From assembly GCA_035084275.1 (NCBI GenBank), contig CM068762.1:6820001-6884000 (forward strand): a DNA stretch of 64,000 nt, written 5' to 3'. Positions 12,001 to 48,219 of the stretch are shown piece after piece. Source of the DNA: Hydrolagus colliei. Lineage: Eukaryota. Positions within the stretch are counted from its first letter, which is position 1, and each line of letters opens with the position of its first letter. The notes beneath the pieces were generated by a model, which had not been told where the DNA came from, did not search any database, and saw only the letters and a list, made by a program, of their open reading frames with translations. The translations under genes and the position numbers were made by a program.

Positions 12001-14502
12001 TCATCGGAAACGCGTCCATCGATCATTGCTTTCACCCTCTTGTGCCAGGCGTAAAATATTCAATTGGAATTATCGCAAGAGCTGGCCCATATAATTCCTC
12101 CATAGCAAATGATGCAGACACGACATGTAAGTGTGAATACGGTCTAATACTAGAATTGCAAATGACAATCTCGTCGCTGAAGCATTAAGGGTTTAACAAC
12201 TAGTTGCGTAGAGAATTGGCTACAATGGATTAATAATAACTGACATGGTTGAATGTGGCTTTGGAAGATAATGCATTGTTTACTACAAAGCAGCAGATGG
12301 AGGGCGTACTTTGAGATACTCGTATGAGCTTCAATATGCACTTGTCTTTCGATGGAAAGCTCAATCAATTTGCAAACATCAGGACTCATTCTCACATTTC
12401 CATCTCCAATGATGTCAATTAATATGTTCACAACTTAGTGGAACTCGGATTTATTTGTATCTTTACAGACCCTTCAAAACCAACCAACCTTAAACTTCAA
12501 AATAATGGAACTCGTGACTCCTTGTATGTTTCCTGGATTGAAAGCGATGGACGGAGGGATGACTATGTTATCCGTCTTCTGGACTTTGGGTCGAGCACAA
12601 TGTTGAAAGAAGCTGTCATTCGAAATGAATCTATAACCCATTCCTTTCAACATTTGACAGCAGGGAAAAAATATACCGTTGCCATTTTTGCTAGAGCAGA
12701 TCTATACAATTCAACAGTCGCCACTGCTACAGATTTGACATGTATGTATCTTTCAGCTCGTTTTAGTTAATGTTTCTGCATTGATCCATTACAAGATTGT
12801 CGGAAATTTTATAACATCCCTCCAAAAAACCCGTTTTCCATGCTATATTACAATTGCTGATGGGAAACAGAAAATATCCAATTATTGATTGTTATGAAAG
12901 AAATCTTCCAAGAAAGTCAAAGCTGAGCAGTTTGGTGGATACCATGACAAATTGATTTCTTGTTTTCTGTTCTGGATAAATTATTGGAGCTATGTGCCAC
13001 TATCAGCAAGCAGGATCCCAAATTTACATGAAAGAATGTTTCTTTCATGGAATCTGATTGGATGAACAACTTTGCACAACTCTCTTTTTACTCTCTTTCT
13101 GCAGATCCTTCCACAGCAATGAATTTGTCAATTGACAATATGAGATCGCCGGATACCTTGTGTGTTTTCTGGAATAAAAGTAATGGAGAAAGGGATGATT
13201 ATATTATCAGTTGTGAAGAGTTTGAATCAACAATCGCGCTCCAAGAAACCGTCATTGGAAACGCGTCCATCGATCATTGCTTTCGCCCTCTTGTGCCAGG
13301 CGTAAAATATTCAATTGGAATTATCGCAAGAGCTGGCCCATATAATTCCTCCAAAGCATATGATACAGACACGACTTGTAAGTTCGAATACGGTCTAATA
13401 CTAGAAATAGAAATGATAATCTCATCGCTGAAGCATTGAAGGTTCAACAAGATTTACTAGGATGGTGCCAGGATTGAGGGACTTCAGCTATGAGGAGAGG
13501 CTAGATAGGCTAGGGTTATTCTCTCTGGAGCAGAGAAGATTGAGGGGAGACCTAATAGAGGTTTATAAGATCATGAGGGGTTTCGACAGGGCAAATAGAG
13601 AAAAACTATTTCCACTCGTGGGTGAATCTGTGACTCGTGGTCACAGATTTAAAATAGTTTCAAGGCGAAGTAGAGGGGAGCTGAGGAGAAATTTTTTCAC
13701 TCAGCGAGTTGTTCGAATCTGGAATGCATTGCCTGAAAAGGTGGTGGAGGCTGATTCGATAACAACTTTTAAAAGGGAATTAGATCTTTATTTAGGGAGA
13801 ACGGGTCTATTAGGCTATGGGGAGCGGGCAGGGCAGTGGGATTGAATCGCTCTTTTCAAAGAGCCGGCACAGACTAGATGGGCCGAATGGCCTCCTTTTG
13901 TGCCGTAAAATTCTATGATTCTATGATTCTATGATTCTATGAATCTAGTTGTGTAGATATCTGGCTACATTGGATTGATAATAACTGACATGGTTGAAAG
14001 TGGCTTTTGAAGATAATGCGTTGTTTAATACAAACCAGCAGATCAAGGGCATTCTTTGAGATTCTAGTATGAGCTTCAATATACACTTGTCTTTTAATCA
14101 ATATGAATCAATTTAGTGAATTTACAAAAATCAGGACTCATTCTTACATTTCCATCTCTAATGATTTCCTCAATTTGTTCTGAAGTATCAACTTTGTGGA
14201 ACTCACATATATGTGTTTCTTTATAGATCCTTCAGAACCACTCAACCTGACTCTTGGAGATGATAAAGATGGTGAATCCTTGAATGTATCCTGGATTGAA
14301 GGCAACGGACGGAGGGATGACTATGTTATCTGTCTTCTTGACTTGGGAACGAACACAACATTGGAAGAAGAAGTCATTGGAAATGAATCTACAAACCATT
14401 TGTTTCAACATTTGAAACCAAATAAGAAATATACCGTTGCAGTTTTTGCGAGAGCTGATGGGTATAATTCAACTGCGGCCATTTTGATGGTCTCAATATC
14501 AA
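1..14502 (+). CDS. 23 phase-1 fibronectin type III exons, alternating type A and type B
   Basis: A exons: <1-234, 1213-1485, 2464-2736, 3715-3987, 4966-5238, 6217-6489, 7468-7740, 8719-8991, 9970-10242, 11225-11497, 12469-12741, 14227-14502. B exons: 591-863, 1842-2114, 3093-3365, 4344-4616, 5595-5867, 6846-7118, 8097-8369, 9348-9620, 10599-10871, 11854-12126, 13105-13377. All complete exons are 273 nt (the last is 276). Acceptors tttacag/ctgcag, donors gtatgt/gtaagt. FN3 pattern P..P.NL...L.V.W...G..D.Y.I...L..G.KY. Confidence 0.93.
1..14502. repeat. Intragenic tandem array, 1251-bp unit (273 exon A + 356 intron + 273 exon B + 349 intron), about 11.5 units visible, continuing past the left edge
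   Basis: Exact 1251-bp periodicity from base 1 to about 11210, also seen in the ORF track offsets. Units differ by a few substitutions. A 4-bp insertion lies near 11214 and divergence rises towards 14502. Confidence 0.98.
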
Positions 14503-17500
14503 GTATGTATAAATTTTTAGCAAATTTTAATGAATATACCTGCTATTCCCCATAACAATGTTTTTTATTGTTGCAAAATTGCACAATTTTTGCATATCAT
14601 ATTCGATTTGGTTATCGGATACATTGAATTTATTGACCGATTCAAGGCAAAGCTTGTAGAAAATTAAAAATAGAACATTTTGGTTCAGAGTACGGTGAAG
14701 TGGAATTGTAGAATTCTATTATATATCAAATTTTAAAGCTGTGCACCAGTATTTGCAAGCACTTGTTTAGTTGCCTTTAATTGCAATCTGAAAGTTTGAT
14801 CGCATTTAATTACATGCTGAAAATTTCAATTGAATTCCAATTGAATTCAGTCATACCTAATGCTCATACAAATGCACTAATGTTATCGTGGCAAATCAGA
14901 AATCAATGGATCTAGGTTTGCGTGTCTCCTCTTGCCAGCCTTGGGATATCCTCTCAATGTGAAAGGTGCTGTACAAGTGTAATGTTGTATTTCGTTTTGT
15001 AATTGTTGGAGAGTGAGCACTTGCCAGGAAGTGTGCTTGTGTTCAGTAACTCGTTTCATAAAGCTGTGTTCACTCCACCTCACCAAGCCACTCAGGATCA
15101 TCGGTGTCTTGTTCGAGCCTCCCCCATATCCATGCTGTGACCCACTCTGCCTTCCCTCAACTCCACAACATTGCCTGTCTTCGCCACTGCCTCAACCCTC
15201 AGGGTGCTGAAACATTCATTCATGCCTTCATCACATCCAGACTTGACTATGCTTGACTATTGGCTTCCCATCATTCAGAGGATTCAATTGAAGGTCCTGA
15301 TCCTCACCTTTAAAGACCTCCATGGCCTTACCCCAACCTCGTTCTGTGACCTCCTAAACACCTGCCAACCTGTCCGTTCCCTCCACTCAGAGAGCTCTGG
15401 CCTGCTCCATATTCCCCGACCCACCCGCTCCACCATTGGCGGGCGTGCCTTCAGCCACTCTGCCCCGAAGCTTTAGAATTCCATCCCACAATCCCTTTAC
15501 CTCACCCTCTCCCTAGCTATCTTCATGTCTTGCCTCAAGAACCTCCTCTTCAACTGTTCCATCGGACACCCTGCACTCTCCCACCCCCCCGCCCCTCTTC
15601 CTTCCATTCACTCCAACCACCCCGATCCTAGTTCACGTCTGAAACACTGACGGTCCAGCACCATGGAACGTCTTCCACACATGAAAGGCACTAAACAAAT
15701 GTAATTTTGTTGTTGTTGTTGTTTGGTCAAAGGCAGTGTTGTCAGTCTATAGCTCAGTGGTTGGAGCACTCGCCTTACAAGCAAAAGACCCGGGTTCAAT
15801 TCTAGGCAGGTTAGGGCGAAACCCTTACTCCACACACCTAAAAATAATCCCTCAAAAAACAAACAATAATAAATTAGTTATTTAAATCAACTGTTTGTGG
15901 GACACTGCTGTCTGCAACTGGTTACTGCATTTTGCCCATACATATACTCAATTCACTTTACAGTATATTCTGTGAAGTACTTTGAAACATCTAGAAGTCA
16001 TGAAAAGCGCTATATCAAATGCAAGGATTATTATTATTATTATTGTTATTGAATACTGTATTAGTCCGGATATATTGGATGAAACAGTCATTCTAAAGGA
16101 TTTACAATAATTTAAAGTATTCCCAATCTGGTTATGTTGCTGTGGAAAGAATCCAGGCAGGGTTTTACTGACAAAACTAAAATAGAATACAGGTTATATT
16201 GAGTGCTCCGATATGCTGCCCCACGTAAAGGGTGATATAATATATTACTAATAATAATCAACAAATAACAACAAATTACATTTATAGAGCGCCTTTCACG
16301 TTGGGAGGACATACCAAGGCGCTGATTTGATATCCTTGCATTTGATATCGCACTTTTCATGACTTCTGGACATCTCATATATATAAATGCAAGTTGTTAT
16401 TGAAATAGCACCTTTCACGTTTTGGAGGCTGTCTCAAAGTGCTTGATACAAGCTGGGAGTGGAAATTGAATGGGATGGGGTGGGGAGGGGAAGGATGACC
16501 TGAAGTGCAGTACATGAGATCTTTAAATGGACCTCAATCTGGTACAAAGACATTGACTCTCTCAAAATCCTTGCATTTGAAGAGCATCCCATCTGGCCAT
16601 GTCACATTCACACATTTTGTCTTTGATATCGGAGGCTGCAAACACAGTGAGGTCTCAAAAGGCCTCCAAAGTGAATTTATTCACAGCTCTTCTCACACAG
16701 ATTAATTAATTAATAGGAGTACAATCTACAATGACAAAGATTTCTTGATTCGTAACTAAGGATCTGCAAACTGTTGAAACATTGTTTGATAAATTGATTA
16801 TATGCCTAAAATGAAGATCTGCCCTTCATTAAAGCTCAGAAGAACATGACAACTGGGTCTTCAGATTCATGGTTCTTAACATTGTGGATGAAGCTGAGTA
16901 ACCATCTGGAACTTTGCTATAAGAGAGGAATGAGAATGCTGTGTACAATTTGTGTAAATGCTTCAGTGTATTCAAGAGGAAACTTAATGCATGCATGGGG
17001 GAAATGGGAAAATAGGTTGTAGGAGGTTTAGAAACATACTAATAGGTCTTGATGACTATACTGATTCTACATAATTATCAACTTAATGGAAACATCAAGA
17101 TCAATTGTTCAATCAACTATTAATTCCTACTTGATTTTTGGTATTTCACAGTTGCAGTTCCCGAATCCAATCCCATTTACTTCGTCTTGGCTGGAGCAGT
17201 AGGACTCCCAGTGTTATTTGTTGGCTATCTGCTATTCAAAAGAAAATGTTTGAAAAGGTAAATCATTTTTGTTAGGTCTGGTAGGTCTTGAGGCAGTGAG
17301 GGAACAAGTTGAGGAAGCGAGAGAGGGAGAGACGAAGGGAGGGAGGTTTGGGTGGGTGAGTAAGGGTAGGGTAGGGTGGATGACCTCAAACAGGAATCCT
17401 GAGCAAAGAGAACGAGTGGGTCAGTAGGGTTTGAATATCTTAAAGCATTACAAAAACAAAGAAAATCTAGCCCTGGTTCAAATTTCTACCCATAACTCTA

Positions 17501-20500
17501 CATAAAGGCAAACAGTAGTCTGGAGTTTCTCCCTCCTTTTATCTTGCCATAAAATTGGTCATTCACTTCACAAGATCAATATGGAGGAGGAGGGTCCTTC
17601 AGCCCTTCTGGTCTCATACTTCCAGAACACCCACATTACTGTCTATGCACCACAGCAGCACAAGCTGTTTTTAAAATGCGTCCTGTGTCCTGGCCACAAT
17701 CATGTACCTATTACGATTCATAGAAAAAAAATTTAGTCACTTTTTTCGAATGTTCATTTCATTAAAACAAATAATCTTTTTCTTTCTTACTAAAGCAAAG
17801 ATAACATGGATGATGAACTGTCAGATCATCCAAGGTAAGTATAAACAACAATGATTTGCCAACAATATCATGCTCTTCATGTAGGATGAAAGGATGAATA
17901 TCTCAAAGCACTCCAGAGTCAAAGACATGAATTTAAGGTGCAAGGAGGAGGAATTTGTGAGAGTTCCATAGAGTGAAGGAATTGTATCTGAAGCCTTGAC
18001 AATTGACAATGTGATGAAGGGAGTGTGGAATGAGCAACAGACGAGTGGAAGGCATGTGTGGGAGACTTGGGCTGTAGAACAGCAACAACAACTTGAACTT
18101 ATATAGCGCCCTGCACACCGGGTGGCATCCTAGAGCACCAAGGCTTGGAACTCCAAAGTGTGCATTGGCAGAATTGCTTTAAATTGAAACAGCAGATATC
18201 ACATAGCTTGCCATTGCAAGCATTCCAAACTTCCCGCTGCTTGGGAGTCTTGTAGCTCAGTGGTTAGAGCACTTGCCTTGCAAGCAAGAGACCTGGGTTC
18301 AATTCCAGACACGGCAAAACCTTGGGCAAGTTTCCTTACTACAGACGCCTGATAATAATCTCTCAAAACCAAACAATAATAAATTGGTTATTTCAATCTG
18401 CAGCTGTTTGTGGGACAATGCTGTCTGCAATTGCCCATATATATATATATATATATATATATACAGTCAATTCACTTTACAGTACTGTGAAGTGCTTTGA
18501 GATATCTAGAAGACATGAAAAGTGCTATATCAAATGCAACGATTATTACTATTATTATTATTATTGTCCAGCCTGGATCACCAGTTTGGGTTCTTGTTTT
18601 GCAAGCCAGTTGAAAGCACTTTATATTATAATCCTCTGACATGCCTTTCTCTTTCCAGCAATGAGTACCCTCCAGTCCAGATAGCAGACTTTGAGTCACA
18701 TTACCATAGGAAATCATCTAACTCCAATGAGGGCTTTTTGGAAGAATTTGAGGTAAATTGTTAATTTCTTTCCAGGATTAGATTAGAGATGCGTTTCATG
18801 CATTAGGTTAGACAGCTCATGGGGAGAGAAACAGATGAGCAATTTGTTCTGTGCTGTAGCATTGTATGATTCTCAATCAGGTCTGAAGACAAGGGTAAAT
18901 CACTGAGTGTGTTTGATTCAGCAACAGATTGGCACAAATATATGGAAGTGACAATGGAATAAAATTTACATTCATGTATCCCTTTCCACATTGGGTTGGT
19001 GTACCAAAGTATTTCACACTGCTGGCTAGGGACCCAAGACAGGTGGAGGTGGGTGGCAGGGGTGGGAAAGGGCGCAGTGTTGAACTGCTGAATAAATAAG
19101 TGTGGTGATGGCGGGAGTGGGACGGAGGTGACCAAAGTGTGGTCAATTAAGTAAGTCTTGAGGCACATTTTGAATTTAGGTAGGTAGGGGTTGAGATGCA
19201 GATACCCAGAAATTCAGTTCCAACGATCAGGGGCAGAATGTCATGTGAAATCACACTGCACAACACATAGAGAACAATAGACACTTACAGAGTTAACATG
19301 ATACAATACAATTTACATTTATACAACACCTTTCATATCAGTAAGACTTCTCAAGGTGCTTGACATCGCTGGCTGGGGAACAAGATGTGTAGCTTGAGTA
19401 TTGACTCCAATTGTTCAACAAGGCACTGACATGGTGAGATCTTTTCACTTCTCTTCAGTTTCGCCCACACAACACATAGTTGAAAGCACTTTACAATATA
19501 ATCTGTGAAGTACTTTTAAACATCTCAATAATGTCTAAGGCGCAATATCAAATGCAAAGATTATTATTATTATTTACAGAAACTGAAAGACGTTGGAAAA
19601 GATCAGTCAAGCAATATGGGCCTAATGATGTATAACAAGGTTAAAAACCGATACAGCAACATATTACCATGTAAGTAAAACTGATTCATTTTGACAAGTA
19701 CCAGCAAAGACCACGAGGATACAATGTAAACTAAGGATAGTGTAGAGATGCACACTTGAATTTCTAACAAAGGAAATTTAGTCGAAATAAGAAGTGTGAC
19801 ATTGCTCGTGACATGCGGTGCTGAAGACTACAGTTCAAACTTGGTAGATTCTTAATATTGATTTTTGTAGCAAACCTAGAATCAGGCTCCATCGTTTATT
19901 AGCTGAATCATTTTACTGCGGCACAATTAAAATGCAACACAGTTTACATTTATGAAGCGCCTTTCATGTGGGACAATTTTTCAATGGACATTACACAGCT
20001 AGCTGGGCACCCAAGCCAGGGAAGGGGGCGAAGCTGGAAAGAATGGGGTGAGGGATGCAGGAAAAATGACCAAAAACAAAGTTAAAGTCTTGAGGCAGCC
20101 TTCTAAAGAGGGAAGTTGAGGGAGGGGGTAGGGGGGGGGGGGGGGGGAGTGGTGAGGCAGATGTACTCCACGTTCAGGTTCTAGAGAATGGGGCAGAATG
20201 TCTGAAATTTCACCCACTTAGTGGTTCTCTGTGGTTAGAGAACCCGCCTCATAAGTGAGAGGACCTGGGTCAGATTCCTGGCAGGATGAATCATTGGGCA
20301 AGTTTCCTTAATCCACACGCCTCTGTTTACCTAGCAGTAATTGGGAGCCTGGTTGTTAGTCAATTGGAGGATTGCTTTTCAGGGGCTATCAATAACAAAC
20401 AACAGCAAAATTACATTTATAGATATGTTAATGATCTTGGAAAACTCTGTTCTCCATTGCTCTTAAGAACATCCTGCAGCCTTTCTGTCGATCGTGCAAG

Positions 20501-23500
20501 TTACCCTAACACTTCTCCATTCCTCAAAGTATGGTATAGGTCAGTACCTCTCTATTCCTGACAACCTATTCGCTGGAGTCGGGCGACTATTCTTACCCTG
20601 TCTTCTCACACGGATCAGATGAAAAGTATTCTACTAATTCTAGTGATGGTCTCGTAGCAGTTTGGTGATCCGGACATCAGCGGCAGACTGGAGATCTCGG
20701 CTTCCACCTCAAGGTCCTTCCCCAACTGCTGTGTCTATCTTCCCTCATGAACTATGTTTTAGATGCTTAGCAGCATCCAGGACAGTCGCCAGACTCCTAT
20801 CCTGTGACTGGATATCTGCCTAGTATCTCAGACCACGTATCCTTAATGTATATTTACTTATCCTTAGAAGGATTAGCTTAGAAGGACCCAGAAATGGGAT
20901 GGAACAAGAGCCACAGAATGATTTGAATATGAGTTTGAGAATTTTTTATTTGCTGTGTTGGGGGAATGTGATGAAATGACAAGAAGGACATTTTTGTAAT
21001 GAATAATAACTGTTTCTATTTAATTTACAGATGACTGGTCAAGAGTCAAACTGTCTGGGACATCATTGGAGCCAGGCCTGGATTATATTAATGCAAGCTT
21101 AATTCCTGTGAGTTGCCTTTTGCATTGGAACATTTCCGAATGTTCCTACACATCAGAGTTAATTTTGCTATATTTCTAAACAGGTTATGAAAAGAACTGG
21201 CTTGCCAATTAAGAATTTTAATTGCACTCTTAATGGGCCGCTCTGCACAATCTTAAGGAAAGGTGGTAGTCTTAAATCTAGGAGCAATTTTGGCAACACG
21301 GAAGGAATGTACTGTGTTGATTGCTGAGTTTCGGAGAATCAGAGCAACCACTTGTCTTCCAATATATTACTTTTTGCTATTCTTGTCTCTGAGTCACAAA
21401 GCTATGGGTTTTTACTCCCCGAATCGGGACTTAGTCTTGTGGTCGAGGCTGACATTCCAGTGCAGAATTGGGGTCTGCTACATTAGCTGAAGTGGAGGAG
21501 ATGAAGTTCCATCTGCCTGTATAGATGGGCAGCAAAGATCTTCCTATTCCTCATTCAAAAAGAGATGGGAATCTCTTCTTGTATCCTGGCTAACAGTCCC
21601 TTGGATGTATTGATCATGACTATTCTTGATTACAAAAGCAGTCTCTACTCTTGAAAACAATGACCCTCAAAGTACTTTGAGACACTTGGACATAATAAGG
21701 GTGTTTTTCTGTCATACTTGTTTCAACGGAACAGCCGCATTCTCGAAGGTTCCAGTTTCGCGGTCATTTGCAGATTGCACGTGACCATGGTAAGATGCAG
21801 GTGTAATTTCATGTTTCTGAGGCTTATGGCTCTGCACTAAATTGCTTACATTTGATTCATGAATGTAGGGTTGCCATTCAGGACCTGACTATATTGCTAC
21901 ACAAGGACCACTGAAAAATACCATCAATGATTTCTGGCAAATGGTTTGGGAGTATAACGCCTGTTGCATTGTGATGTTGACAAATCTAATTGAAAATAAC
22001 AAGGTAGGTTCATTCAAAGTGTTGAATGGGAATTTGGGGCGAAGTTTAAAATAGATGCCATTTTACGGTGTTAGTGCATAACACATTGACATGTGTTGCA
22101 AAGGTTACATTTATTATTACTATTATTTTAATGCATTTGCAGGTCAAATGTGAACAATACTGGTCTGCTAACAGGACACGCATTCAATTTGGACAGGTAC
22201 ATGTCAGTGTACTAAAAGTGAAAAAGTTTAAGGAATGGACTTCCACTGAAATGATGATTTCTCATGTAAGTGCAAAATATGCTCATTTTTGTAAGCATAA
22301 ATTCAATTGGATTCAAGTCAAACATGTATTCACATTGCCAAGCGTGTATACACATTGTCTTTACAAATGCTCAGCATAATTTAAGCAACTTGATGACAAG
22401 TTAATGATGTAAACCTGACACAGTTCATGGCACGCTCACAAATGATTCATAAGGTTACGTGACAATTGAAGTCACAAAGACGTACGCTGCAGTGCTTTGC
22501 TGATGGTTCACAGCATTGTTGGTGGTGCTGTTCTTCAGATGAGGCATTGAACTGAGGTCCCATCTGAATGTTCAAAAATAGAATGATATTGATAATAATA
22601 ATAATTTTTATTATTATAGCTCTTTTCAAAAACTTCCCTAGGTAATGTCGACCATTTACTTCATAAAAGTTTGTGGGCCTTTGCTTGCATAAATTGGCTG
22701 CTACGTTAAGAAACCAAGTGCACAGGCACTACACTTAACAGTAATACCTTTGAGACGTCCTCATGACGACCTCCGTGAATACGCGTGATACAAAATGCAA
22801 GGGTATTATTATTTACCTCGCGAGTGACGCAAATCGGATGCTCGCCCAACAATCCCATGACATCAATTGACTGGACATCAATTGGAAACAGGAATACAGC
22901 AGAAATTCTTTACTTTTCAAACAACTTTGAACTGATGTATAGTAATTGTTTTAACCTAGGAGAACATTAGGAAATACTTTAAGGATGACCTCAAATCTTT
23001 TACTTGAGAAGGAGAAAAAGAGAGGGCAAAACTACTACTATTAGAGATTTGGCAAACTATGTATCCTAAGAAAGACATTTGAATGCATACCACAAACTTG
23101 CTAATTATTTTTCCCTATAGACTAACAATAAAGCAGCCAGGACAATTTGGCATTACCAGTATGTGGCCTGGCCTGACAATGGAGTTCCTGAATCAATCAA
23201 TTCACTGGTTGACTTCACAGAAATGGTTAAAATGGCGACAGAGAATGTGAGAAACTCGGGACCTGTGGTGGTTCATTGCAGGTCGGTTTGGTTGAAGAAA
23301 ATCCTTCAGCTCATCTGATCTTACCCCTCCTCAAACCACCATCTCCCATCCCAGCAACTTTGAGCTGTTTTCTAAATGTGTTCAGGGTCCTGGCATCAAC
23401 CACCTTTCCTGGCATCAACCACCTTTCCTGGCAATTTGTTCCAATCATTGATTGCTCTCTGGGTATAGAAATACTTCCTGTTGTCTATTCTGAAATTCTT

Positions 23501-26500
23501 CTTTGCACCTCCAAACTTGTGTCCTCTTTTACTGTCTTACTGTGTGTTAAAATATTGTTCTGGGTTTATTTTTTTCAATCCCATTTAAGGACTTCATACT
23601 GAAGTCATGTAACTCAATGGTTAAAGCACTCGCCTTACAAGCGCGAGACCTGTATTTGAATCCAGGCAGGTCAGAGCGAAACCTTGGGCAAGTTTCCTAA
23701 CTCCACATGCCTAATAATAATTCCTCAAAAAAAAACACATTAATAAAATTGGTCATTTCAATCCACGACTGCTCGTGGGACACTGCTGTGCGCAATTGGC
23801 TGGCGCGTATTGTCCACAAAATGTACAGTTAATTCACTTTATAGTATATCCTGTGAGACGTCTAAAAGACATGAAAAAGCGCTATATCAAATGCAAGGAT
23901 TATTATGATTATATCAAGGTTCTTAGCTGCAACTATCTTTGTACTCCATTTCACTTCAATCACAATGACTGTCAATGTCATTTGGTGGTGGTGTTTTTAT
24001 ATTATAGTGCTGGAGTTGGTCGTTCAGGCAGTTTTATTGCACTCGATTGTTGTATGTATCAGATGGCAACCAAAGCGACCGTGGATGTGTTTGGCCAAGT
24101 TTACAGAATGAGACGGCAGAGAACAATGATGGTTCAGACATTGGTATGTTACACACAGTCTGTCTTACATTAACTGCCGTCGCTGTGTTACACGCTTACT
24201 TTGTATCTGAATTATCCTGAAAGTACATCTGAAAGGAGTATACATTTTATTAATAAGACTGGTGTCTGCCTGCCTGGCTCCAAGACACTACCAACATGTG
24301 GCATTATATAAATACAAGTTGTTGTTGTATTGTCAGAGGTTCCATTCTTCACATGAGATGTTAAACAAGTATCTTATCTGGCTATTCTGTCATTGGTATA
24401 ATCTGAGTAACAAAATGCAAGAATTTCAAATTGAAAGTGATGAAATTGTCCAATATTATTATGTTAAGAAATTGTTTAAAATTGACCAGCATTTCTCATG
24501 TTTTTCAGGATCAATATGTGTTGGTGCATGCCTGCATTCGCCACATCATTTCATCAATCAAAGAAAAACATGTAAAGTAAGCCATACTAATATATATTTT
24601 ACCTATCCTCCTTTGGACGTTCTTACAGCCATTGCGTATTGGTAAGGGATCAGGCACAAAGCCTTCTCAAGGCATAATCCAGATGTGAAATATATGAACT
24701 CACACCAGTTCCACTGCAGTTCTGGGACAGAAGTTGCCAGAAGTGCTGACTTTCTGATGAGACATTTCATCAAAGTCCCGTCTGCCTGTTCGGGTGTCCT
24801 TTGGATGAGATTCCCAGTCATTACCACAGCATTTTGTGCGTAAAATCTCATGACGTGCTTTGAGGTATCTCGATATAACTCACTGTACCAAATGCAAGGA
24901 GTATTATTGAAGGAAACAAGCTAGTGAGATTGTACACAGGGATGAAAAAACGGTGCAGTTGTGCTTGAATGACCTTTTCTGTGAGGTAATGTCACAACTC
25001 CGTGCGCAAGGCAGTGAAATCATTATCTGAACAGTCACGTTGGGACCCGAGCAAAGGGGAGGAGCAGGATAGGCAGGCGGGGAGGGGAGGGAGAGAGTTG
25101 GGAGGGGAATAGAAGTCACAATCCGAGGCGCTCCGAGACATTATTCCTCATGAGGACAGCGCCATATAACTCCAAGTTGTTGTTCTAATTGTTATAATTG
25201 CTTCTCTTTCTTTATAGAAGAAAAAATTGTGTGCGGCTGACTGACTTCCCTGTGCACTGCTCACGTTTGGCTGCAAACTCAAACATGGGTTTCTTAGAAG
25301 ATTTTGAGGTGCGAATTGGAAAAAAAGGTTTCACTGTTTTAGCAATTAAATCACTATATCAAATCCAAGGACCACTATTATTATCATCGGGAACACATTG
25401 AAGCCTATGTATTGCCATTCATAATGAAATGTCAAAGCTCATTTGAAACGTAATTGTCGTTTCTCCTGTTTCGCTCGGTTGCAGCAAAATCCCTGTTCCT
25501 GGTGTTCTTTTTTTTGGGTGAGGAATACACTTTGTAGCTGGAGCTGCGTATGTTCTGAAGATTGCCACGAGGTGGAGCTGCTCAGAGTTGTCAGATTGAC
25601 ACTCCTCGCAATGTGATCCGCAAAGCAACAGCACTGCACTGTGCCTGCATATCTGAAAAGAGATCATGATCTCGCCAGCGCAGTACGATACAATTGACAT
25701 TGAATTGGTGTTGGCGCCTTTCGCAACAGGAGGACGTCTCAAAAAAGTGTGACGATGCTGAATGGGGAGATGAACGCCACATGGAGCGTGACCAAAAGTC
25801 GCCTCTATTATCTAAAAAAATCCTAATTTGTTTAAAGACTTATTAGACATTAGACAAGACTTATTTACATTGTAATGGAATCACACCTTTTTGGTCACCC
25901 TCTACTAATGCATGTTGTACGCACGCATCATCGTCGGCCTTCCCAGCTCCTCCCTTCACAGGCTGCAGATTATTCACAACTCTGCAGCTCATGTCCTCTC
26001 CCGCACTAGGCTCCGCGACCACATCACTCCCACCCTCGCCCGTCTCCACTGGCTCCCCATCCCCCAGAGGATCGAATTCAAGAGCCACGTCCTCACCTTC
26101 AAGGCCATTCACGGCCTTGCCCCTGCCTATCTCTCAGACCTGCTGTCTCCCTATCAGCCCTGCCCGCACCCTCCGCTCAGCAGGCTCTGGCCTGCTCCAC
26201 ATCCACCGCCTTAACCACCCCACCATCGGTGGCCGGGCTTTCAGCCTCTCTGCTCCCACACTGTGGAACTCCATCCCGCAATCCCTTCGCCTCAATTCCT
26301 CTCTTTCCTCCTTCAAGGCCGGTCTCAAGATCTTTCTCTTCCACCGCGCCTTCTGCTCCCCTCCGAACTCTTTCCCCTCTCCTACTCTCCTTCCCCTTCC
26401 CCCTACCCCAACCCTTTCCCCCCTGCTCGGGTCCCGACCTGATTGCTCAGCGCCTTGGGACCTCCCAACGTGAAAGGTGCTCTAGAAATGTAATTTTGTT

Positions 26501-29500
26501 GCTGTTGTTGTTGTTAGTCGTGCAGAGTTGAATGGCCTGAGATTTAAAGTCATGATACATTATAGATGTACTGCATCCCATTATTTTGCTTGCAAGAGTC
26601 AATCTGACATGCCTCCACTGTGAGGCTTGGAGTTTCTTCACAAGTTCCCCTCTTGCCCACCACCTAGTGGGCACTTGTAGATGGTTTTTTTGTGGCCGGC
26701 CTCTCAGTTGAGGGTGTGGAGATGAAAACATAACAGAATAATAGTGGCAACAAACAGAGAGCATATTGCATTTGTGTTTGTTTATAGTTTTGAATGTATC
26801 AAACTCAGTTATAGTATTTCCTATTTTGAAAATACAGGTATACAAATTTCAATGATGCATTTCGGTTTTCATTCTCACTGCAGGTGTCATCCTCAAGTCA
26901 TAAATTTGAATTGGAAGCATTATATTGTAAATTAGTATCCCAAAAGATATGTCAGTAATACTTGTTTGTGGTAGTGTTTCTAATAATACTATACGTTGTT
27001 CTTTCGGCGACTCTGTATACCAAGCAATATAGGAATCCAGTTGTTAGTCGATTGGTGGATCCCTTATCCGGGGGAATAAATAGTTCCTTCAAAAAATAAT
27101 AAATTGGTCACCTCAATCCATGACTGTTTTTGTGACACTGCTGTGTGTTATTGGCTGTCACATTTCGCCAACAAAATATACAATCAATTCACCTTTCAGT
27201 ATATTTTGTGAAGTGCTTTGAGATGTCTCCAATGCGTGATAAGGTGCTATATCAAATGCAAGGATGATTATTATTATTAAATACCGCCCTCCCTCCACCC
27301 CCGGACTATGTTCAAATTCAAACCAGAAAGAAAGTGCATTGTAGAATTTGTCCTTCGCCCTGACATAACGAGAGACTTTAGTGATCATTTGTCAATAAAA
27401 AAAAGATTTGTTTTTGTCTTGAAGAATGCACAACCTACGATCATCACATTAAATCATACTTTTAATAAGATTGTCAACTTGAGCTTTTAAAAAAAAATTT
27501 ACTTGGACGTTATTGTGTGGTAAACGCTGGGTTTGTGAACAAGTTTAATAAATTAAAATCAAAGCAAAATGACACATAATCTTTTCAATATCATCGGCTT
27601 CTTATTACATTATAAAAGATTTATGGATGAATAATTACAAGGGTTTTTTTAAGCTCCTATTTTTAAATTAACATCTGCATTTAACTGATGTTTGTTCTGA
27701 TTCCTTTGTAGTTCCTAGGACAGGCAGGGAGAAACCAGCCAAAAACTGTAGGCCTGCTGCCTGGCAATGCAAATAAGAATCGCTACAAAGATGTTGTGCC
27801 ATGTAAGTTGTGTTTCTGTACTCCTTACTGTCTTTGTCCCAAATTGCTTCCCACAGGCATCGTTCTGCAGTGAGAAGTTAAATCGAGGTCCTGTCTTCCT
27901 GTTCCGGTGAACTCTAAATGTCCCATGGCACTGTTCGAAAAGAGAAGGGAATTCCTCTCTCCCAATGTTTCTCTCTTCCAATCCCTCAAATAAAATTGGC
28001 CACTTGCTTCGTGGCTGTTTGTGGGACCGCGCTTTGCTCAAATTGGCCGCCTCGTTCGCCCACGAAACACAGTCACGACACTTTAGAAAGATAATAATAA
28101 TCCTGTGAAGTGCTTTTGTCCCTAAGTGAAAGTCACTGTACCAATTATAAGGATTATTACTATTATTTTTCCCTGAGTGTTGTATAGATATTTTGAGCAA
28201 AGCTTACGGCTGCAGGCTCGTTAGCAAAATATTCCCTGAGACACACAAGTTGATTGAGGTGACAGATGTCAGCACTCGAAGGTGAGACACATTTTGGTCT
28301 CGGCACCTAGATGTCAGCTTGCCTCAATCTGTAGTGCTCTCTCACCTTGAGAGTAGAACGTGACCCCCAGGTTGACACACTGATAGAACTCAGCCCGTTA
28401 CATGTGCTGGCCTGTAGGCAAAATGTCAAACCGAGGTGAATGTTAAAGAGCCTGCTATTACTATTCAAACAGAAAAGGCAGTTTCCCCCAGTGTACAAAC
28501 TAAAATGGTTACAAATGTTTCTCTTATCTGCTATATATATAATATATATATATAGGTGTAAAGGATTATGTAAGGAATTTAATGTATGTTGATTTTGATT
28601 TACTTTGTGTTTTTGCAGACGATCACTCTAGAGTTAAGTTGCCACCTTCTTTCAATGATCCTTACTCAGATTATATCAATGCCAACTTTATTGCGGTGAG
28701 TTCTCTGCAACTTTTATTGTTATACAGTATCAGGTGTATGATATGAAGTCGATGCCTTTCAAAGGAAAGTTAATTATTTATTCAATTTACATTGCAATTG
28801 AAGTCTCAATGGAATCCGATAACCTCCGGGCTGGGCTGTAAGTGCATTCACTGTGAAGCTACACCTGCCAACACGGCTCCGCCAATGCCTTGAAATCCCA
28901 CTTGTTCAGAAGAAGCCAATGTACTCTCCTTCCGAAGCTTTGGAATTCTCTCCTTCAATGCCTCCATCATGCCCCCTCCTTTCAGGTTACGTTTCTCTTC
29001 GACTTTGCTCATGTTCACCTCCTCCCTCCCCTCGATTCGGTATTATGCTCCCCCATTATTAAGTGCACTAACATACTGCCCCAGTTACAGGGGGCTGAGG
29101 AAACCCAAGTTCTTGTTTTTTCCTGTTGTCTCATGATCACAAGATTGGTTGGCTGAAGAACACCCATTGGCCCATTTCATCTCATCCCTCCACCCACCCT
29201 CCCACTCCCATTCCTGCAACAAGCTACTTTATAAATCCATCCCAGTGCTCTGGCCTCAACCACCTTTCCTGGCAACCTTTTCCAGTTGTTAATTCCCCTT
29301 TAAGAAAATAATTACGCTGTGAGTAAAGATCTGAGCCACCTCAAAATATCCCAGGGGATAGACAGCAGAAAGGGTGCTGCAAATTTTCAAAGACTGACAA
29401 AAGAAAACAAAAAAAAAGAGTACATGATAAGAGAATCTACTCTCATGTTTAGTGTACAGACACTTTCTGGTCTGTAACTGAACCATTCTTTTAATTTATA

Positions 29501-32500
29501 ATGTCCTTCATTGGTAAACACTATAAACTCTCAGTGTCAGTGTCTATAACTGAAGGACACGTTGGGGTTTCAATCTCATAGTCTAGGCTGATGGCTCCAA
29601 TGTAATGCTCGCTGGCTGTTGTTGCATTGTTGGAGTGGTCGTCATTAGGATGAGACCTTATATTCATATAAGGTGTTGCCTGGTATATTGTTAGGCTATA
29701 TTGCTAATACAGTTGAGTTTAGATCCCTGGACATTAACCGCAGGCTGCGCCTTGTTTTGGTCAGGCCACATTTGCAATTCTGGTTACCATGAATTATGCC
29801 TTGAGATAACTTGCGGAAACCGCACAGGCAAGCCTTGCTCTTCATCAATCGCATCTCATCCCCAAATGTAGGGCTACAATTCAGAAAATGAATACATCGC
29901 TGCGCAAGGACCACTGAAACATACCGTGGTGGACTTCTGGACAATGATATGGATGCAGAATGTGTCCATCATTGTCATGTTAACACGGTGTGAGGAGAAT
30001 GGCAAGGTAAGACCATGCAGTGCTGATGGGTGAAGATAATGAAGAGATGCTGGATGTTCCTTATCTTAAACACTGGTTATCTTGCAGGTTTGCTAAAATG
30101 ATGTCCATACAACGTCGACACTGATAGAGAACTTGTTGTACGGTACTGGTGTTCCAGTTACTAGAAGTCTTAGCTCGGAATATAAACACTCCACCTATGA
30201 ATGCGTGATCCTGCCATAGCAGCCTTGATCCTGCCTTGATCCTGCCACAGCGCAGATGGGGAGAGAGAAGGGTGGGAGATGTACTTCATTGTTGGAGGCA
30301 TGGTCCTTCCAATGAAGGAAGGTTAAACCAAGGTTTTGTTCACCTGGTGAACATTAAAGATCATTAAGTGATGCTATTCAAAAAAAAACATCTCCTAGCA
30401 ATAACATCCGCAAAATACATAGGTAGGATATACATGGTAGAAAGCTGGGTATTAAAGACATTTATTCTGTGGCTTCCACTGACACAAATCACCCAAGGCT
30501 TCATCTCTAGCTTGTGGTTTATGTCGCTAATGTGTATTGCGTGATATTGCGTGATATGTAATGTGCAAGCAATTTTCTGTTTTTTTCGCTTTCGCGTTAA
30601 ATAACCATTATCAAAAACATGTGGATTGCAGCAAAAATGTGAGGAGTATTGGCCCTTGAACAGGAACCCTCAGCTGTTTGGTAACATTCTTGTTCAAGTC
30701 GTATCGCAAAACGTGTACGCCGAGTACACAGACAGACAATTTAAAGTTACTCACGTGAGTATTCCTGTTTTATATGCACTCCTTGCTATCCCACATGGAG
30801 GGCGCTGTATAAACACATGTTTTTGTTGTTGTTATACTCCACTCAATGTAAAAGCAAGCACTGTTTTGACGGTAGAATGCTTCAAGTACAATTCCTCAAA
30901 TTATGAGAACAAATGGGCCAAAGAACCTTCTTCAACTGAACGGTCCAATGATGTTCAGCTTTGTTACTATTTTGTTACTACATTTTTAACTTTGTTACTA
31001 GGATGTCACTTTCTTAATACATCTTTAGACTTGATTACTATTTTGTTTCTTTTGTTACTACCATTTTAACTTAGTCACTATTTCGCTGTAAACCTAAACT
31101 TTTCTCCTGATGCGGAACAAAGTGACCAACGTTGATGGCTTAAGTTTTTCGTTACCAGGTGCACCACCGAATGGAGAGGAACATTTCTCACTTACATTTT
31201 GGGGGCTGGCCAGATCACGGTGTGCCTAGCTCCACCGATTCAATCATAAGTTTTGTGACTGATTTCAGACATCATGTCCACTCCATCAAGCCACCAGGGC
31301 CCACAATTGTGCACTGCAGGTAAGGATGCAACCAGTGGAAAATCCTCCAGTAATTGTATTGTATATAATTATTATTACAGTGTTGGGGGAGCACTACATT
31401 ATCGGAGCTGAGGTCCTTTGGATGAGACGTATCCATCCAAGGTCCTTCTGCCTGTGTCTGTTAAAAATCCTATTCAAAACGAACAGAGGGTTTCTCTGGG
31501 TATCCTGACCAACAATCCCCACCCCCATCCCCAGAGAAGATGGGTCATTCACTTCATGTGGACATTGCCTTATGCAAATTAGCTGCAATATACCTATATA
31601 TAAAAAATCTTTGTAGTACTTTACAGTAAAATCCTATTATGTACCATAAGACTTCCTCCCATTGTGAAAAGCACTATATCAAATGCCAGAATTATTGTCA
31701 TTATCAACTCAATAGTTATGAACGTTGGATATATCACTCCACACTGTGATGTACAATATTTGCATCCAGAGCTTTCCACGTCAGTAGAAATACTCAATCT
31801 GCCTATTGTGACCTCAGTTTCAACCTCTCATCTGTCGGAAAGCATTGGTTGTCAGCTTAGAGATCAATGTTCTAATATAGGTTCCCTGAACCTCCTGCCC
31901 CACCATTGGCTGTCGGACATTCAGCATCTCTGCTTCCACACTCTGGACCTCTATCCTATAAACCCTTCGCTTCACCCCCTCTCTTGCCTCGTTTATATCC
32001 AGTCTGAAGACTTTCCTCTTTGACTATGCCTTCAGCCACCCTCCCACCCCCACTGCCACACTCCCAGCTCTCCACCCCTCCTGACCCCCAACTCCCAGTT
32101 GGGGTCCAAAAGCTCCTGACTGTCCAGCGACCTGGGAAATCTTTACGACTTGAAGGACACTCTAGAAGTATAATTTGTTGTTGAACCCGTAACCATTTAA
32201 CATGCTAGTTTAATTACAAGATGCTAACTAAAAGTCTACATCGATTCTCTCAGTTGACAGAATATAACATGTATATCTCTGTTTTGTACTTCAGTGCTGG
32301 AGTAGGTCGAACGGGCACATTCATTGGTCTAGACTGTCTGCTGCAACAGATCAAGAATGAACAAACTATCAACGTGTTTGAAATGGTTCAAAAAATGAGA
32401 CAAAACAGATGTTTTATGGTCCAAACTCTGGTATGCTCCAAACAAAAGTGCACTCATCAATCTATGTCTCAATTTTCGGACAACTAGACATATTGTGCCC

Positions 32501-33220
32501 AGCTAAATCAAAGGACCTTGGTTTCAGCTTGTTTAACGTATTGGATATGATAGCATTCAGAAAAATCTTGTATTTATTCCTCTATCTGATCCAGGCACAT
32601 CATCAATGGAGGAGCTTTCAAGTATTCCAATCTCACCTTCCAGTATTCCAAACCAAAACCCCTTTGCTTCACCCCCCTCCCACTCCATGCTTTAAGATCC
32701 ATCTGTTCAATTGCAATTTGTGTCATCTACCTCCCACCCCTCCACCACCCCCACTCCCCATCCCTCTTCACTTTAGCCCCCAGCCCCCAAAGCATTGCCT
32801 TCCAGCTTGCAAAGCAATGTGCTTTGAGATATCCTCTCGATGCATTAATATAAATCGTTGCTATTGTTCACATACAACAGTTTAGCTGCTGAATAAGAAA
32901 TGTGTGGTTACTCCCAGTTAGTGTGTGGTAAATGAGTGGGTGTGAAGGGTTGGTTACACCTCATGGGTCTGCCAAGTCTTGATCAGACTTCCCAGCTCTT
33001 CTCCATCAGGGTTTAATATGCGGGAATGTTGTGAGGATCGATAGCAGTGATAATTCTGGCAATAATTGTCATTCTGCCTTGTTTTTCAAGCGCAGCCAAA
33101 AGGTGAATTGAAAATGAAACTAACATTCTCATGTTTTTTTTCTACTTCTTTTCTTAGGACCAGTACATATTCCTGCATGTGTGCCTCGGAAATATCCTTA
33201 CAAACCTATTGAACAACTAG
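1..33220 (+). CDS. PTPRV: Receptor-type protein tyrosine phosphatase, R3-like (PTPRV/OST-PTP-like), 5'-incomplete, 41 coding exons visible: at least 23 FN3 + TM + two PTP domains
   Basis: Manual splicing gives one open frame with compatible phases at all 40 introns and a TAG at 33218-33220. The RPTP call is firm. The PTPRV symbol is less certain and rests on the FN3-only visible ectodomain, two PTP domains and the position directly upstream of an LGR6-like gene on the same strand. Confidence 0.8.
13451..13944 (+). mobile_element. 5'-truncated CR1 LINE (ORF2 C-terminus, 3' UTR and tail) inserted in the last array intron
   Basis: ORF 13462-13845 ([30 protein letters not shown]...[16 protein letters not shown]) is typical of the CR1 ORF2 end, followed by an (ATTCTATG)n tail. 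It interrupts the array motif aacaa|ctagtt that is contiguous in the other units. Confidence 0.93.
15150..15721 (+). mobile_element. Degenerate L2 LINE 3' fragment
   Basis: Translates to [23 protein letters not shown]...[12 protein letters not shown]; ends in tail tgaaaggcact...aatgtaattttg(ttg)n. Left boundary approximate. Confidence 0.8.
15744..16049 (+). mobile_element. tRNA-derived SINE, near full length
   Basis: A box tagctcagtgg, B box ggttcaattc, core ctgtttgtgggacactgctg, tail gcgctatatcaaatgcaaggatt(att)n. Confidence 0.85.
17152..17257 (+). CDS. RPTP transmembrane exon
   Basis: tttcacag|...AAA AG|gtaaat, phase 1 to 2. Encodes [35 protein letters not shown]: 21 hydrophobic residues followed by a basic stop-transfer. 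Alternative in-frame acceptor at 17158. Confidence 0.88.
17796..17834 (+). CDS. RPTP 39-nt juxtamembrane mini-exon
   Basis: Pyrimidine tract then taaag|C AAA GAT...CCA AG|gtaagt, phase 2 to 2, encoding [13 protein letters not shown]. The AAG acceptor is weak. Confidence 0.65.
18245..18565 (+). mobile_element. tRNA-derived SINE, near full length
   Basis: Same head, core and tail as 15744-16049, with an internal (AT)n expansion. Confidence 0.85.
18659..24576 (+). CDS. PTP domain 1, 8 exons
   Basis: Exons 18659-18752, 19580-19670, 21031-21107, 21869-22003, 22143-22265, 23121-23281, 24008-24143, 24509-24576. Motifs [64 protein letters not shown]. Confidence 0.94.
19458..19573 (+). mobile_element. 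SINE 3' fragment abutting a splice acceptor
   Basis: gtttcgcccac...tctgtgaagtact...atatcaaatgcaaaga(tta)n followed directly by ttacag and the exon at 19580. Confidence 0.75.
23602..23911 (+). mobile_element. tRNA-derived SINE, near full length
   Basis: Same family head, core and tail. Confidence 0.82.
25218..33220 (+). CDS. PTP domain 2, 8 exons, ending at the stop codon
   Basis: Exons 25218-25308, 27712-27802, 28619-28695, 29872-30006, 30632-30754, 31159-31319, 32295-32430, 33158-33220. Motifs [64 protein letters not shown]; ends NLLNN-TAG. Confidence 0.94.
25925..26514 (+). mobile_element. L2 LINE 3' fragment
   Basis: [14 protein letters not shown]...[21 protein letters not shown]...[14 protein letters not shown], then after a frameshift [19 protein letters not shown]; (ttg)n tail. 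Confidence 0.9.
31885..32182 (+). mobile_element. Degenerate L2 3' fragment
   Basis: Similar to 26200-26514, including the tail tgaaggacactctagaagtataatttgttgttg. Confidence 0.6.
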
Positions 33221-33262
33221 AGCTTTGCTGAATTGCTCTTCCACTTGCCAAAACTCCATCTC

Positions 33263-47596: not shown

Positions 47597-47768
47597 AGGT
47601 AAATGCTGGAGGAGAAAGCAGAGAGAGACAGACAGACAGAGTTTGCTGAGACCTAAGGCAAGACAGACACGTGTGTGTGTGTGGCAGTAAGTGACATCCA
47701 CTCTTGTGAGCTTGCACAGAGCGACAGAGCCACCAAAGCAACCAGAGCCAGTGAGGGCACCGGTAGGA

Positions 47769-47953
47769 ATGATGCCCATTTGCTGTGGCTTTGCCCTGCT
47801 CCTCGCTGCTGCCCTCGTTGCCTCTGCCACCCCCAGCCCCTCTTGCCCAGCTCACTGCCACTGTGAAGAGGATGGGATCTTGCTGTGGGTGGACTGTTCA
47901 GAACTCGGGCTCGACAACCTGCCTGCAAACCTCAGCCCCTTGACATCCTACCT
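47769..47953 (+). CDS. LGR6: Coding exon 1 of leucine-rich repeat GPCR LGR6 (signal peptide and LRRNT cap); no further exon recognised in the window
   Basis: [62 protein letters not shown] with phase-2 donor CT|gtgagt. Clear LGR4/5/6 N-terminus; EDGI and CSELGL favour LGR6 over LGR5. Confidence 0.85.
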
Positions 47954-48219
47954 GTGAGTGCACCTACCTCTGATACTTCCTGTGTCCATCTCCTTCTCTC
48001 TCCACCCCCCACCCCACCCTCTCTCACCCCCTCTCTCTCTCCCTCTCTCTCTCTATATATAGATAACTATAGGCATAGGTCACTTTTTGTTGAGAAAAAA
48101 TGTACAATTTGGTTGAAATCTTTTACTCAGTCGCTCAGATACCTGTAGCACAATATGTATTAGTTTGTTTAACCACCCACCCACCCAATGTGTTTGAAAC
48201 TGGTTCTCGGATGCTGCGC

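What the first reader, a model, noticed from the sequence alone, without database searches (positions are those of the whole stretch)
18659..33220. D2 is a full exon-for-exon duplicate of D1 and looks at least as canonical
Seen: matching exon lengths D1/D2 of 94/91, 91/91, 77/77, 135/135, 123/123, 161/161 and 136/136 with identical phases. Even the membrane-proximal exon is duplicated (VQIADF...[12 protein letters not shown] vs VRLTDF...[12 protein letters not shown]). D2 has [21 protein letters not shown] and QT.DQY; D1 has the variants WPDN and GRSG. The introns show no obvious similarity, so the event is old. Known: D2 of LAR, CD45, PTP-alpha and PTP-gamma types has substitutions in catalytic motifs. 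Inference: an independent duplication of a single R3-type domain with both copies kept active.
Basis: partly seen in the sequence, partly recalled or inferred. Interest (0 to 1): 0.75.

Follow-up and report, generated by a model that had tools for sequence, protein, structure and literature searches.

The report
Chimaera PTPRV with two intact phosphatases
This gene, likely from a chimaera (ghost shark), groups with the bone-linked receptor phosphatase PTPRV, but both of its enzyme domains keep the catalytic residues and are predicted to be active, whereas the second domain is broken in the land-vertebrate copies examined, so it likely preserves the state before that domain went dead.

Summary
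D1 (18659-24576) and D2 (25218-33220) have matching exons and phases, form one open frame, are 43% identical, and both keep KNRY, WPD, Cys-X5-Arg and the Q-loop. The gene is not a new receptor. It is the orthologue of PTPRV (OST-PTP/ESP), a two-domain R3 receptor named in many tetrapod records. Both domains fall in the PTPRV clade (99/99), the FN3 repeats match PTPRV best, and an LGR5/6-type gene follows. Grouping D2 with classical D2 domains is rejected (p-AU 0.012).

The unusual part is the intact D2. None of 114 tetrapod PTPRV D2 domains keeps WPD or the P-loop Arg, whereas D2 here and in Callorhinchus milii is fully canonical and at least as conserved as D1. Most likely, one duplication before jawed vertebrates split gave two active domains; chimaeras kept both and tetrapods turned D2 into a pseudophosphatase. 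A separate re-duplication in cartilaginous fishes is not excluded: the trees lean slightly that way and five histories are all unrejected. Activity and splicing are untested. Verdict: new variant of a known kind, interest 0.45.

The parts
1..14502 (+). Ectodomain: array of single-exon FN3 repeats. 22 complete exons (21 of 273 nt, one of 276 nt) plus one cut by the window start, mostly in a 1251-bp unit carrying two alternating FN3 types; copies about 98% identical.
   Evidence: exons, spacing, identity; Pfam fn3; best-domain scores 38-50 bits to PTPRV, at most 32 to non-PTPRV proteins held.
17152..17257 (+). Transmembrane exon
   Evidence: Hydrophobic stretch followed by basic residues, AG/GT, in frame.
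17796..17834 (+). Juxtamembrane 39-nt exon (phase 2/2)
18659..18752 (+). D1 exon 1 (membrane-proximal helices), 94 nt
19580..19670 (+). D1 exon 2 (KNRY), 91 nt
21031..21107 (+). D1 exon 3 (DYINA), 77 nt
21869..22003 (+). D1 exon 4, 135 nt
   Evidence: Y_phosphatase.
22143..22265 (+). D1 exon 5, 123 nt (YWS variant)
23121..23281 (+). D1 exon 6 (WPDN loop, catalytic Cys), 161 nt
24008..24143 (+). D1 exon 7 (rest of P-loop with Arg, QTL), 136 nt
24509..24576 (+). D1 exon 8 / linker, 68 nt; reading on past the donor meets a stop at once
25218..25308 (+). D2 exon 1 (duplicated membrane-proximal segment), 91 nt
27712..27802 (+). D2 exon 2 (KNRY), 91 nt
28619..28695 (+). D2 exon 3 (DYINA), 77 nt
29872..30006 (+). 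D2 exon 4, 135 nt
30632..30754 (+). D2 exon 5, 123 nt
31159..31319 (+). D2 exon 6 (WPDH loop, catalytic Cys), 161 nt
32295..32430 (+). D2 exon 7 (P-loop Arg, QTL), 136 nt
33158..33220 (+). D2 last coding exon with stop; no YxN tail; AATAAA/ATTAAA at 33549 and 33641
47754..47954 (+). First coding exon of the next gene, LGR5/6-type (signal peptide + LRRNT), same strand; inferred LGR6
   Evidence: ORF; LGR5 chains, E about 1e-11, one-residue gap; LRRNT.

Best explanation
This gene groups with PTPRV (OST-PTP), a single-pass receptor with a long FN3 ectodomain and two R3-type phosphatase domains, and here both domains keep the catalytic motifs and are predicted to be active, likely because chimaeras retained the state that followed one ancient duplication while tetrapods let the second domain decay. 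Shown: exon structure, open frame, motifs, placement in the PTPRV clade, an intact D2 in C. milii, and a broken D2 in the tetrapod proteins examined. Inferred: (1) the exons are spliced into one D1-D2 protein; (2) each domain works by the standard PTP mechanism (P-loop Cys attacks phosphotyrosine, Arg holds the phosphate, WPD Asp acts as acid/base, Q-loop Gln positions water); (3) D2 is under at least as much catalytic constraint as D1 and may be the main enzyme, with D1 (WPDN/WPDY, YWS) drifting toward other substrates or lower activity; (4) the eight-exon block was duplicated once, before cartilaginous and bony fishes split, independently of the LAR/CD45-type D2.
For: PTPRV clade holding window D1/D2, C. 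milii D1/D2 and tetrapod D1/D2: 95 (FastTree, 193 rows), 96/94 (45 rows), 99/99 (32 rows). D2 with classical D2 rejected, p-AU 0.012; D2 with PTPRH/J-like domains rejected, p-AU 0.0008. Q-loop QTL, FE and VF are shared with PTPRV against other R3. FN3 repeats score best on PTPRV. No YxN tail, as in PTPRV and unlike PTPRH/J. An LGR5/6-type gene follows; LGR6 and PTPRV lie under one human association (10.1101/828525, passages) and both are on chicken chromosome 26 (PMC7379350, passages). Tetrapod D2: WPD 0 of 114, P-loop Arg 0 of 114; D1: WPD 106, Cys 105, Arg 118 of 119. The C. milii model P0001 joins both domains with intact motifs. Over exons 6-7 the window and C. milii share 71/92 in D1 and 76/92 in D2, whereas in 3 of 3 tetrapod pairs D2 is the less conserved domain (68/92 vs 55/91, 55/92 vs 36/91, 65/92 vs 60/91). 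D2-D2 and D1-D1 orthology are not rejected (p-AU 0.34; 0.18). The D1-D2 path (1.13 changes per site) is far longer than window to C. milii D2 (0.24), so the event is much older than the split of these two species. One duplication needs fewer events than two.
Against: The free trees join chimaera D1 with chimaera D2 (85; 95/85; 83/76), and the single-duplication tree had the lowest likelihood of five (3.6 lnL lower, p-AU 0.17, bp-RELL 0.048). Site patterns are tied (2, 3 and 1). No shark, ray, ray-finned fish, coelacanth or lungfish PTPRV appeared in the top 120, although a window-like protein would score 590 bits against one search's cut of 539; so the bridge taxa are missing. The tetrapod set is mostly birds and not independent. 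The C. milii entry is a partly faulty gene model, not a transcript. No activity or splice evidence. The tree lacks PTPRO and PTPRQ, PTPRB is one unnamed domain identified by inference, and no PTPRB FN3 repeats were held for the FN3 comparison. LGR6 versus LGR5 was not settled by a tool.
Confidence: 0.6

Rival explanations
1. Same gene (PTPRV) and both domains active, but the chimaera pair arose separately: an early cartilaginous fish re-duplicated one domain, or homogenised the two by gene conversion, so chimaera D2 is not the orthologue of tetrapod D2.
For: Chimaera D1+D2 form a clade in all three free trees (85; 95/85; 83/76). The 'independent' and 'both from the D2 lineage' topologies have the best likelihoods. 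The ectodomain shows that this gene amplifies exon blocks readily. Near-identical tandem R3 domains also occur in some fish models, though these look like fused neighbouring genes.
Against: The joining branch is short (0.06-0.09), loses its star when sampling changes, and could reflect the long tetrapod D2 branch. Single duplication is not rejected. It needs two events with the same block boundaries in one gene. No recent conversion tract: longest exact run 15 nt.
Confidence: 0.27
2. The two blocks are used as alternatives or only one is an enzyme: transcripts end after D1, or skip D1 by splicing the phase-2 juxtamembrane exon straight to D2; or one domain keeps its motifs but acts mainly as a binding or regulatory module.
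For: Reading past the last D1 donor meets a stop at once. The juxtamembrane exon and D2 exon 1 have compatible phases. D1 has WPDN, YWS and QYVL. A single-domain 301-aa PTPRV is annotated in Xenopus tropicalis. Motif-bearing D2 domains can be inactive and modulate D1 (PMC3172300, passages).
Against: No AATAAA/ATTAAA in intron 24577-25217, and a consensus GTAAG donor. 114 of 120 tetrapod proteins carry both domains. The C. milii model joins them. Phase compatibility follows automatically from duplicating the block.
Confidence: 0.1
3. The gene is another R3 receptor (PTPRH/J/B-like) or D2 is a classical RPTP D2, and the likeness to PTPRV is convergent.
For: Window D2 is as identical to frog PTPRH (49%) as to tetrapod PTPRV D1 (48-49%). 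The juxtamembrane PTP_tm module of tetrapod PTPRV was not found in the window. The downstream exon is also close to LGR5.
Against: AU rejections; PTPRV clade 99/99; FN3 match and QTL loop; no YxN tail.
Confidence: 0.03

Closest known systems
PTPRV / OST-PTP / ESP of tetrapods (e.g. Alligator XP_014464884.2, Ambystoma XP_069489695.1, Microcaecilia, Gallus, Meriones)
   Same: FN3-only ectodomain with similar repeats, one TM, two tandem R3-derived PTP domains with the membrane-proximal segment repeated, QTL-type Q-loop, no YxN tail, neighbouring LGR gene.
   Different: D2 is canonical here, while WPD and the P-loop Arg are absent in 114 of 114 tetrapod D2 domains. At least 22 FN3 exons in a near-identical array (Pfam finds 11 passing stretches in alligator). 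PTP_tm juxtamembrane module not detected.
Callorhinchus milii A0A4W3GUJ9 (P0001; unnamed 'protein-tyrosine-phosphatase' fragment)
   Same: Direct orthologue: two domains with intact catalytic motifs; D2 80% identical over 223 columns.
   Different: Partial, partly mis-predicted model; WPDY rather than WPDN in D1; not named PTPRV by its source.
Single-domain R3 receptors PTPRB, PTPRJ, PTPRH, PTPRO, PTPRQ (PMC5336234, parts 1-3 of 5 read)
   Same: FN3 ectodomain with one exon per repeat in phase 1; closest solved single domains are PTPRB, PTP10D, PTPRO and PTPRJ.
   Different: Two PTP domains; no YxN tail; QTL instead of QTE; that paper lists five vertebrate members and does not mention PTPRV (0 occurrences).
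Classical tandem RPTPs (LAR/PTPRF, PTPRA/E, CD45, PTPRG/Z)
   Same: D1-D2 tandem of similar period (294 aa here, 291 in LAR).
   Different: Their D2 domains form a separate clade with altered WPD/KNRY loops; grouping with them is rejected.

Membership tests
PTPRV (OST-PTP/ESP) orthology group | PTP domains form a clade with named PTPRV domains | tested here: met
   95, 96/94 and 99/99; PTPRO and PTPRQ were absent from the trees.
PTPRV (OST-PTP/ESP) orthology group | Two tandem R3-derived PTP domains after an FN3 ectodomain and one TM | tested here: met
PTPRV (OST-PTP/ESP) orthology group | FN3 repeats closest to PTPRV repeats | tested here: met
   38-50 bits versus at most 32 for non-PTPRV proteins held; no vertebrate PTPRB ectodomain was in the set.
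PTPRV (OST-PTP/ESP) orthology group | Locus between PTPN7 and LGR6 (order recalled; PTPRV-LGR6 proximity from 10.1101/828525 and PMC7379350) | tested here: inconclusive
   An LGR5/6-type exon lies 14.5 kb downstream on the same strand; LGR6 vs LGR5 not resolved; the upstream gene is outside the window and no genome is held.
PTPRV (OST-PTP/ESP) orthology group | Degenerate, inactive D2 (typical of the tetrapod members; not needed for orthology) | tested here: not met
   Window and C. milii D2 keep WPD, Cys, Arg and Q-loop; 0 of 114 tetrapod D2 keep WPD or Arg. This is the variant feature.
PTPRV (OST-PTP/ESP) orthology group | Juxtamembrane PTP_tm (PF18861) module, present in most tetrapod members | tested here: not met
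   No tblastn or HMM hit between 14503 and 17151; loss or strong divergence.
R3 receptor PTPs as defined in PMC5336234 | Ectodomain of FN3 repeats, mostly one exon each with phase-1 introns | tested here: met
   only the part inside the window was seen.
R3 receptor PTPs as defined in PMC5336234 | Single cytoplasmic PTP domain | tested here: not met
   Two domains, as in PTPRV, which PMC2933243 calls an additional type 3 receptor (passage).
R3 receptor PTPs as defined in PMC5336234 | C-terminal YxN phosphorylation motif (PTPRB/J/H/O) | tested here: not met
   Protein ends a few residues after D2.
Classical RPTP D2 domains (LAR, alpha/epsilon, CD45, gamma/zeta) | Membership of the classical D2 clade | tested here: not met
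   p-AU 0.012; the D2 set was one vertebrate LAR plus five invertebrate or unnamed domains.
Active classical PTP domain | KNRY, WPD Asp, Cys-X5-Arg, Q-loop Gln and the other conserved motifs | tested here: met
   D2 10 of 10 patterns, D1 8 of 10 with all catalytic residues present (patterns recalled).
Active classical PTP domain | Measured phosphatase activity | not testable with these tools
   Needs an enzyme assay.

The most novel reading that the evidence does not exclude
Chimaeras keep a vertebrate receptor phosphatase with two fully active tandem catalytic domains. It is the living precursor state of the tetrapod PTPRV pseudophosphatase D2, with D2 here the more constrained and possibly dominant enzyme. 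This would be a second, datable origin of a D2 pseudophosphatase whose 'before' and 'after' can be assayed side by side.
Probability: 0.45. Interest if true: 0.62.

Novelty: new variant of a known kind. Interest (0 to 1): 0.45.

Why it matters
Why receptor phosphatases keep a dead second domain, and how such a domain dies, is an old question. The classical D2 arose too long ago for an active form to survive. PTPRV repeats the experiment within vertebrates, and this gene appears to hold the active starting state. Comparing chimaera D2 with tetrapod D2 lets one test which losses come first and whether regulation of D1 by D2 came before loss of catalysis. It also moves PTPRV, described in the papers seen as a rodent bone and testis gene and a human pseudogene, back to the common ancestor of jawed vertebrates, in a lineage with a cartilage skeleton. 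Limits: the two-domain architecture itself is known, and activity is only predicted.

Tried and rejected
Whole genome: none held, so the upstream neighbour and the start of the gene could not be read.

Homologue search with one D2 exon: 1 candidate, none scored.

RNA: no RNA holder listed; this says nothing about expression. The one run listed (X1, contigs, kind not on record) was laid on 17000-33600. It shows no splice joints. Of 36 listed substitutions, 3 lie in exons: two silent and one Pro-to-Ala in D2 exon 1; none of the 11 listed indels lies in an exon. It may be the window's own source, so it is not independent support.

ESM Atlas on the LGR exon returned only generic LRRNT clusters.

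Domain spacing does not separate PTPRV (284-299 in 8 of 9 proteins measured; one gave no pair) from LAR (291). Site-pattern counts and AU tests could not order the four PTPRV domain groups.

dN/dS was not possible: no C. milii DNA was held. No structure was predicted, because the only foldable orthologue was a faulty partial model and the fold is not in doubt.

Rejected: D1 as degenerate because of GRSG; D2 as a separate gene (only 641 bp separate the blocks); D2 as classical D2 or PTPRH-like.

Literature: ten searches found no paper on PTPRV in cartilaginous fishes or on an intact PTPRV D2; 'PTPRV' with 'elephant shark' gave 0. The library lacks most subscription papers; Andersen 2001 was not held, and no supplements were read. 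That rodent OST-PTP was described with two domains and an inactive D2 is recalled, not read. Earlier scan notes: nothing found.
Full report
Observation. The sequence shows two blocks of eight coding exons on the + strand: D1 at 18659-24576 and D2 at 25218-33220. Lengths are 94/91, 91/91, 77/77, 135/135, 123/123, 161/161, 136/136 and 68/63 nt, with AG/GT borders and the same intron phases. With the transmembrane exon (17152-17257) and a 39-nt exon they give one open frame of 635 aa. D1 and D2 share 126 of 291 residues, third codon positions are 37% identical, and the longest exact DNA run is 15 nt.

Catalytic motifs. Both domains have KNRY, DYINA, WPD, HCSAGxGR and QTLDQY. D2 meets 10 of 10 recalled motif patterns and D1 meets 8, with two peripheral departures. 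GRSG occurs in 24 of 119 tetrapod PTPRV D1 domains, so it is no sign of decay. WPDN is rare (1 of 68 first domains), and C. milii has WPDY at the same place.

Surroundings. Upstream lie at least 22 FN3 exons, mostly in a 1251-bp two-exon unit with copies about 98% identical. Downstream, at 47754-47954 on the same strand, is the first exon of an LGR5/6-type gene. I read it as LGR6, from a one-residue gap against LGR5 and from recalled gene order; no tool settled this. A passage of 10.1101/828525 places LGR6 and PTPRV under one human association, and a table in PMC7379350 has both on chicken chromosome 26.

Identity. A profile of the two WPD exons found as best hit a Callorhinchus milii protein with both domains (P0001, 172 bits), 80% identical in D2. 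With about 1.03 billion letters of contigs in the one matching run, this suggests the window comes from another chimaera; that is inference. The hits also included crocodilian and salamander proteins named PTPRV, and a follow-up returned 120 proteins, named PTPRV-like or unnamed, all named ones from tetrapods. In three trees the window's D1 and D2 fall in one clade with tetrapod PTPRV D1 and D2 inside R3: 95 (193 rows), 96/94 (45 rows) and 99/99 (32 rows). The focused trees used 9 tetrapod species each, with one isoform per species. Forcing D2 with classical D2 domains is rejected (p-AU 0.012), as is forcing it with PTPRH/J-like domains (0.0008). FN3 repeats match PTPRV best, the Q-loop reads QTL as in PTPRV, and there is no YxN tail. 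Against this: raw identity of D2 to frog PTPRH equals that to PTPRV D1 (49%), the PTP_tm module was not found, and PTPRO, PTPRQ and a named PTPRB were not in the trees.

What is known and what differs. Tetrapod PTPRV has the same R3-derived tandem, including a second copy of the membrane-proximal segment, so the duplication is not new. Its D2 is broken. Of 120 proteins examined, 114 gave a D2 (6 had none long enough to count), and none of these keeps WPD or the P-loop Arg, though 94 keep the Cys. Of 119 D1 domains, 106 keep WPD, 105 the Cys and 118 the Arg. The set is mostly birds, so these are not 114 independent observations, but it spans caecilians, salamanders, squamates, turtles, crocodilians, birds, monotremes, marsupials and placentals. 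In chimaeras D2 is intact in both species and slightly more conserved than D1 (76 vs 71 of 92 columns). In 3 of 3 tetrapod pairs D2 is the less conserved domain.

How it most likely works. The protein would be a type I membrane receptor whose long, glycosylated FN3 rod (4-6 N-glycosylation sequons per repeat) sets its position at the cell surface, with two cytoplasmic domains that each dephosphorylate tyrosine by the standard Cys/Arg/Asp/Gln mechanism. The residues are shown. Splicing into one chain, activity, and D2 being the more constrained enzyme are inferred. Substrates are unknown; in mice OST-PTP is reported to act on the insulin receptor in osteoblasts (PMC8799702, passages), which is only a lead here.

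History. Two readings remain. In the first, one duplication before jawed vertebrates split gave two active domains, and D2 decayed on the line to tetrapods. It needs one event, fits the long D1-D2 distance (1.13 vs 0.24 between the two chimaera D2) and is not rejected (p-AU 0.34, 0.18, 0.17). In the second, the chimaera pair was re-duplicated or homogenised early: all free trees join chimaera D1 and D2 on a short branch (85; 95/85; 83/76), and the single-duplication tree scored lowest of five. I favour the first at about 2 to 1, on parsimony rather than on the trees. Sharks, rays and basal bony fishes would decide, but none appeared in the top 120, even though a window-like protein would have passed one search's cut (590 vs 539 bits). 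Only 8000 candidates of limited length were scored in each search, so this is weak evidence of absence.

Literature seen. PMC5336234: parts 1-3 of 5 and a term search; R3 defined as single-domain, PTPRV not mentioned. Passages only: PMC8799702, PMC10815196, PMC7379350, PMC2933243, 10.1101/828525, PMC3172300, PMC13536820. Ten searches found nothing on chondrichthyan PTPRV or an intact PTPRV D2. Subscription papers such as Andersen 2001 and 2004, and all supplements, were not seen and may bear on the R3 origin of PTPRV D2, which I recall as already noted.

Verdict. A real feature. The gene is a PTPRV orthologue, and the tandem R3 duplication is known. The intact, conserved D2 is a variant I could not find described. 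New variant of a known kind; interest 0.45.

Noticed in passing
window 1-13400: At least 11 head-to-tail units of 1251 bp, each with two FN3 exons; exons about 98% identical between copies and introns visibly near-identical too; variant codons 16 non-silent/7 silent (type A) and 14/7 (type B). Recent amplification or concerted evolution of the ectodomain; an assembly effect is not excluded. The array runs off the window start.
   Followed up: partly
window 14503-17151: No PTP_tm (PF18861) juxtamembrane module found between the last FN3 exon and the TM exon, although most tetrapod PTPRV proteins have it.
   Followed up: partly
window 24577-24579 and 17834/25218: An in-frame stop follows the last D1 donor, and the juxtamembrane exon could splice in frame to D2 exon 1, so D1-only or D2-only forms are possible; no poly(A) hexamer in that intron.
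   Followed up: partly
window 47754-47954: First exon of an LGR5/6-type receptor gene, same strand; later exons not traced.
   Followed up: partly
P0018, P0292, P0293, P0367 and other squamate hits: 14 of 119 tetrapod PTPRV D1 domains lack the catalytic Cys in the alignment (HSSAG in three salamanders and in the lizard Elgaria; HGSAG in 10 proteins whose species I did not list), so PTPRV may be wholly inactive in those lineages.
   Followed up: no
P0096, P0424: Xenopus tropicalis PTPRV is annotated as a 279-302 aa single-domain protein without ectodomain.
   Followed up: no
P0173, P0174, P0004, P0003, P0172: Database proteins with two or three PTP domains that look like fused models of neighbouring genes (near-identical domains, long spacers, or domains of different subtypes); a trap for searches for 'double R3' proteins.
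   Followed up: partly
window 13440-13920 and 40940-41100: Two related interspersed-repeat fragments in opposite orientation ending in an 8-bp tandem repeat; many other SINE/LINE-like pieces lie in the introns (labels recalled).
   Followed up: no
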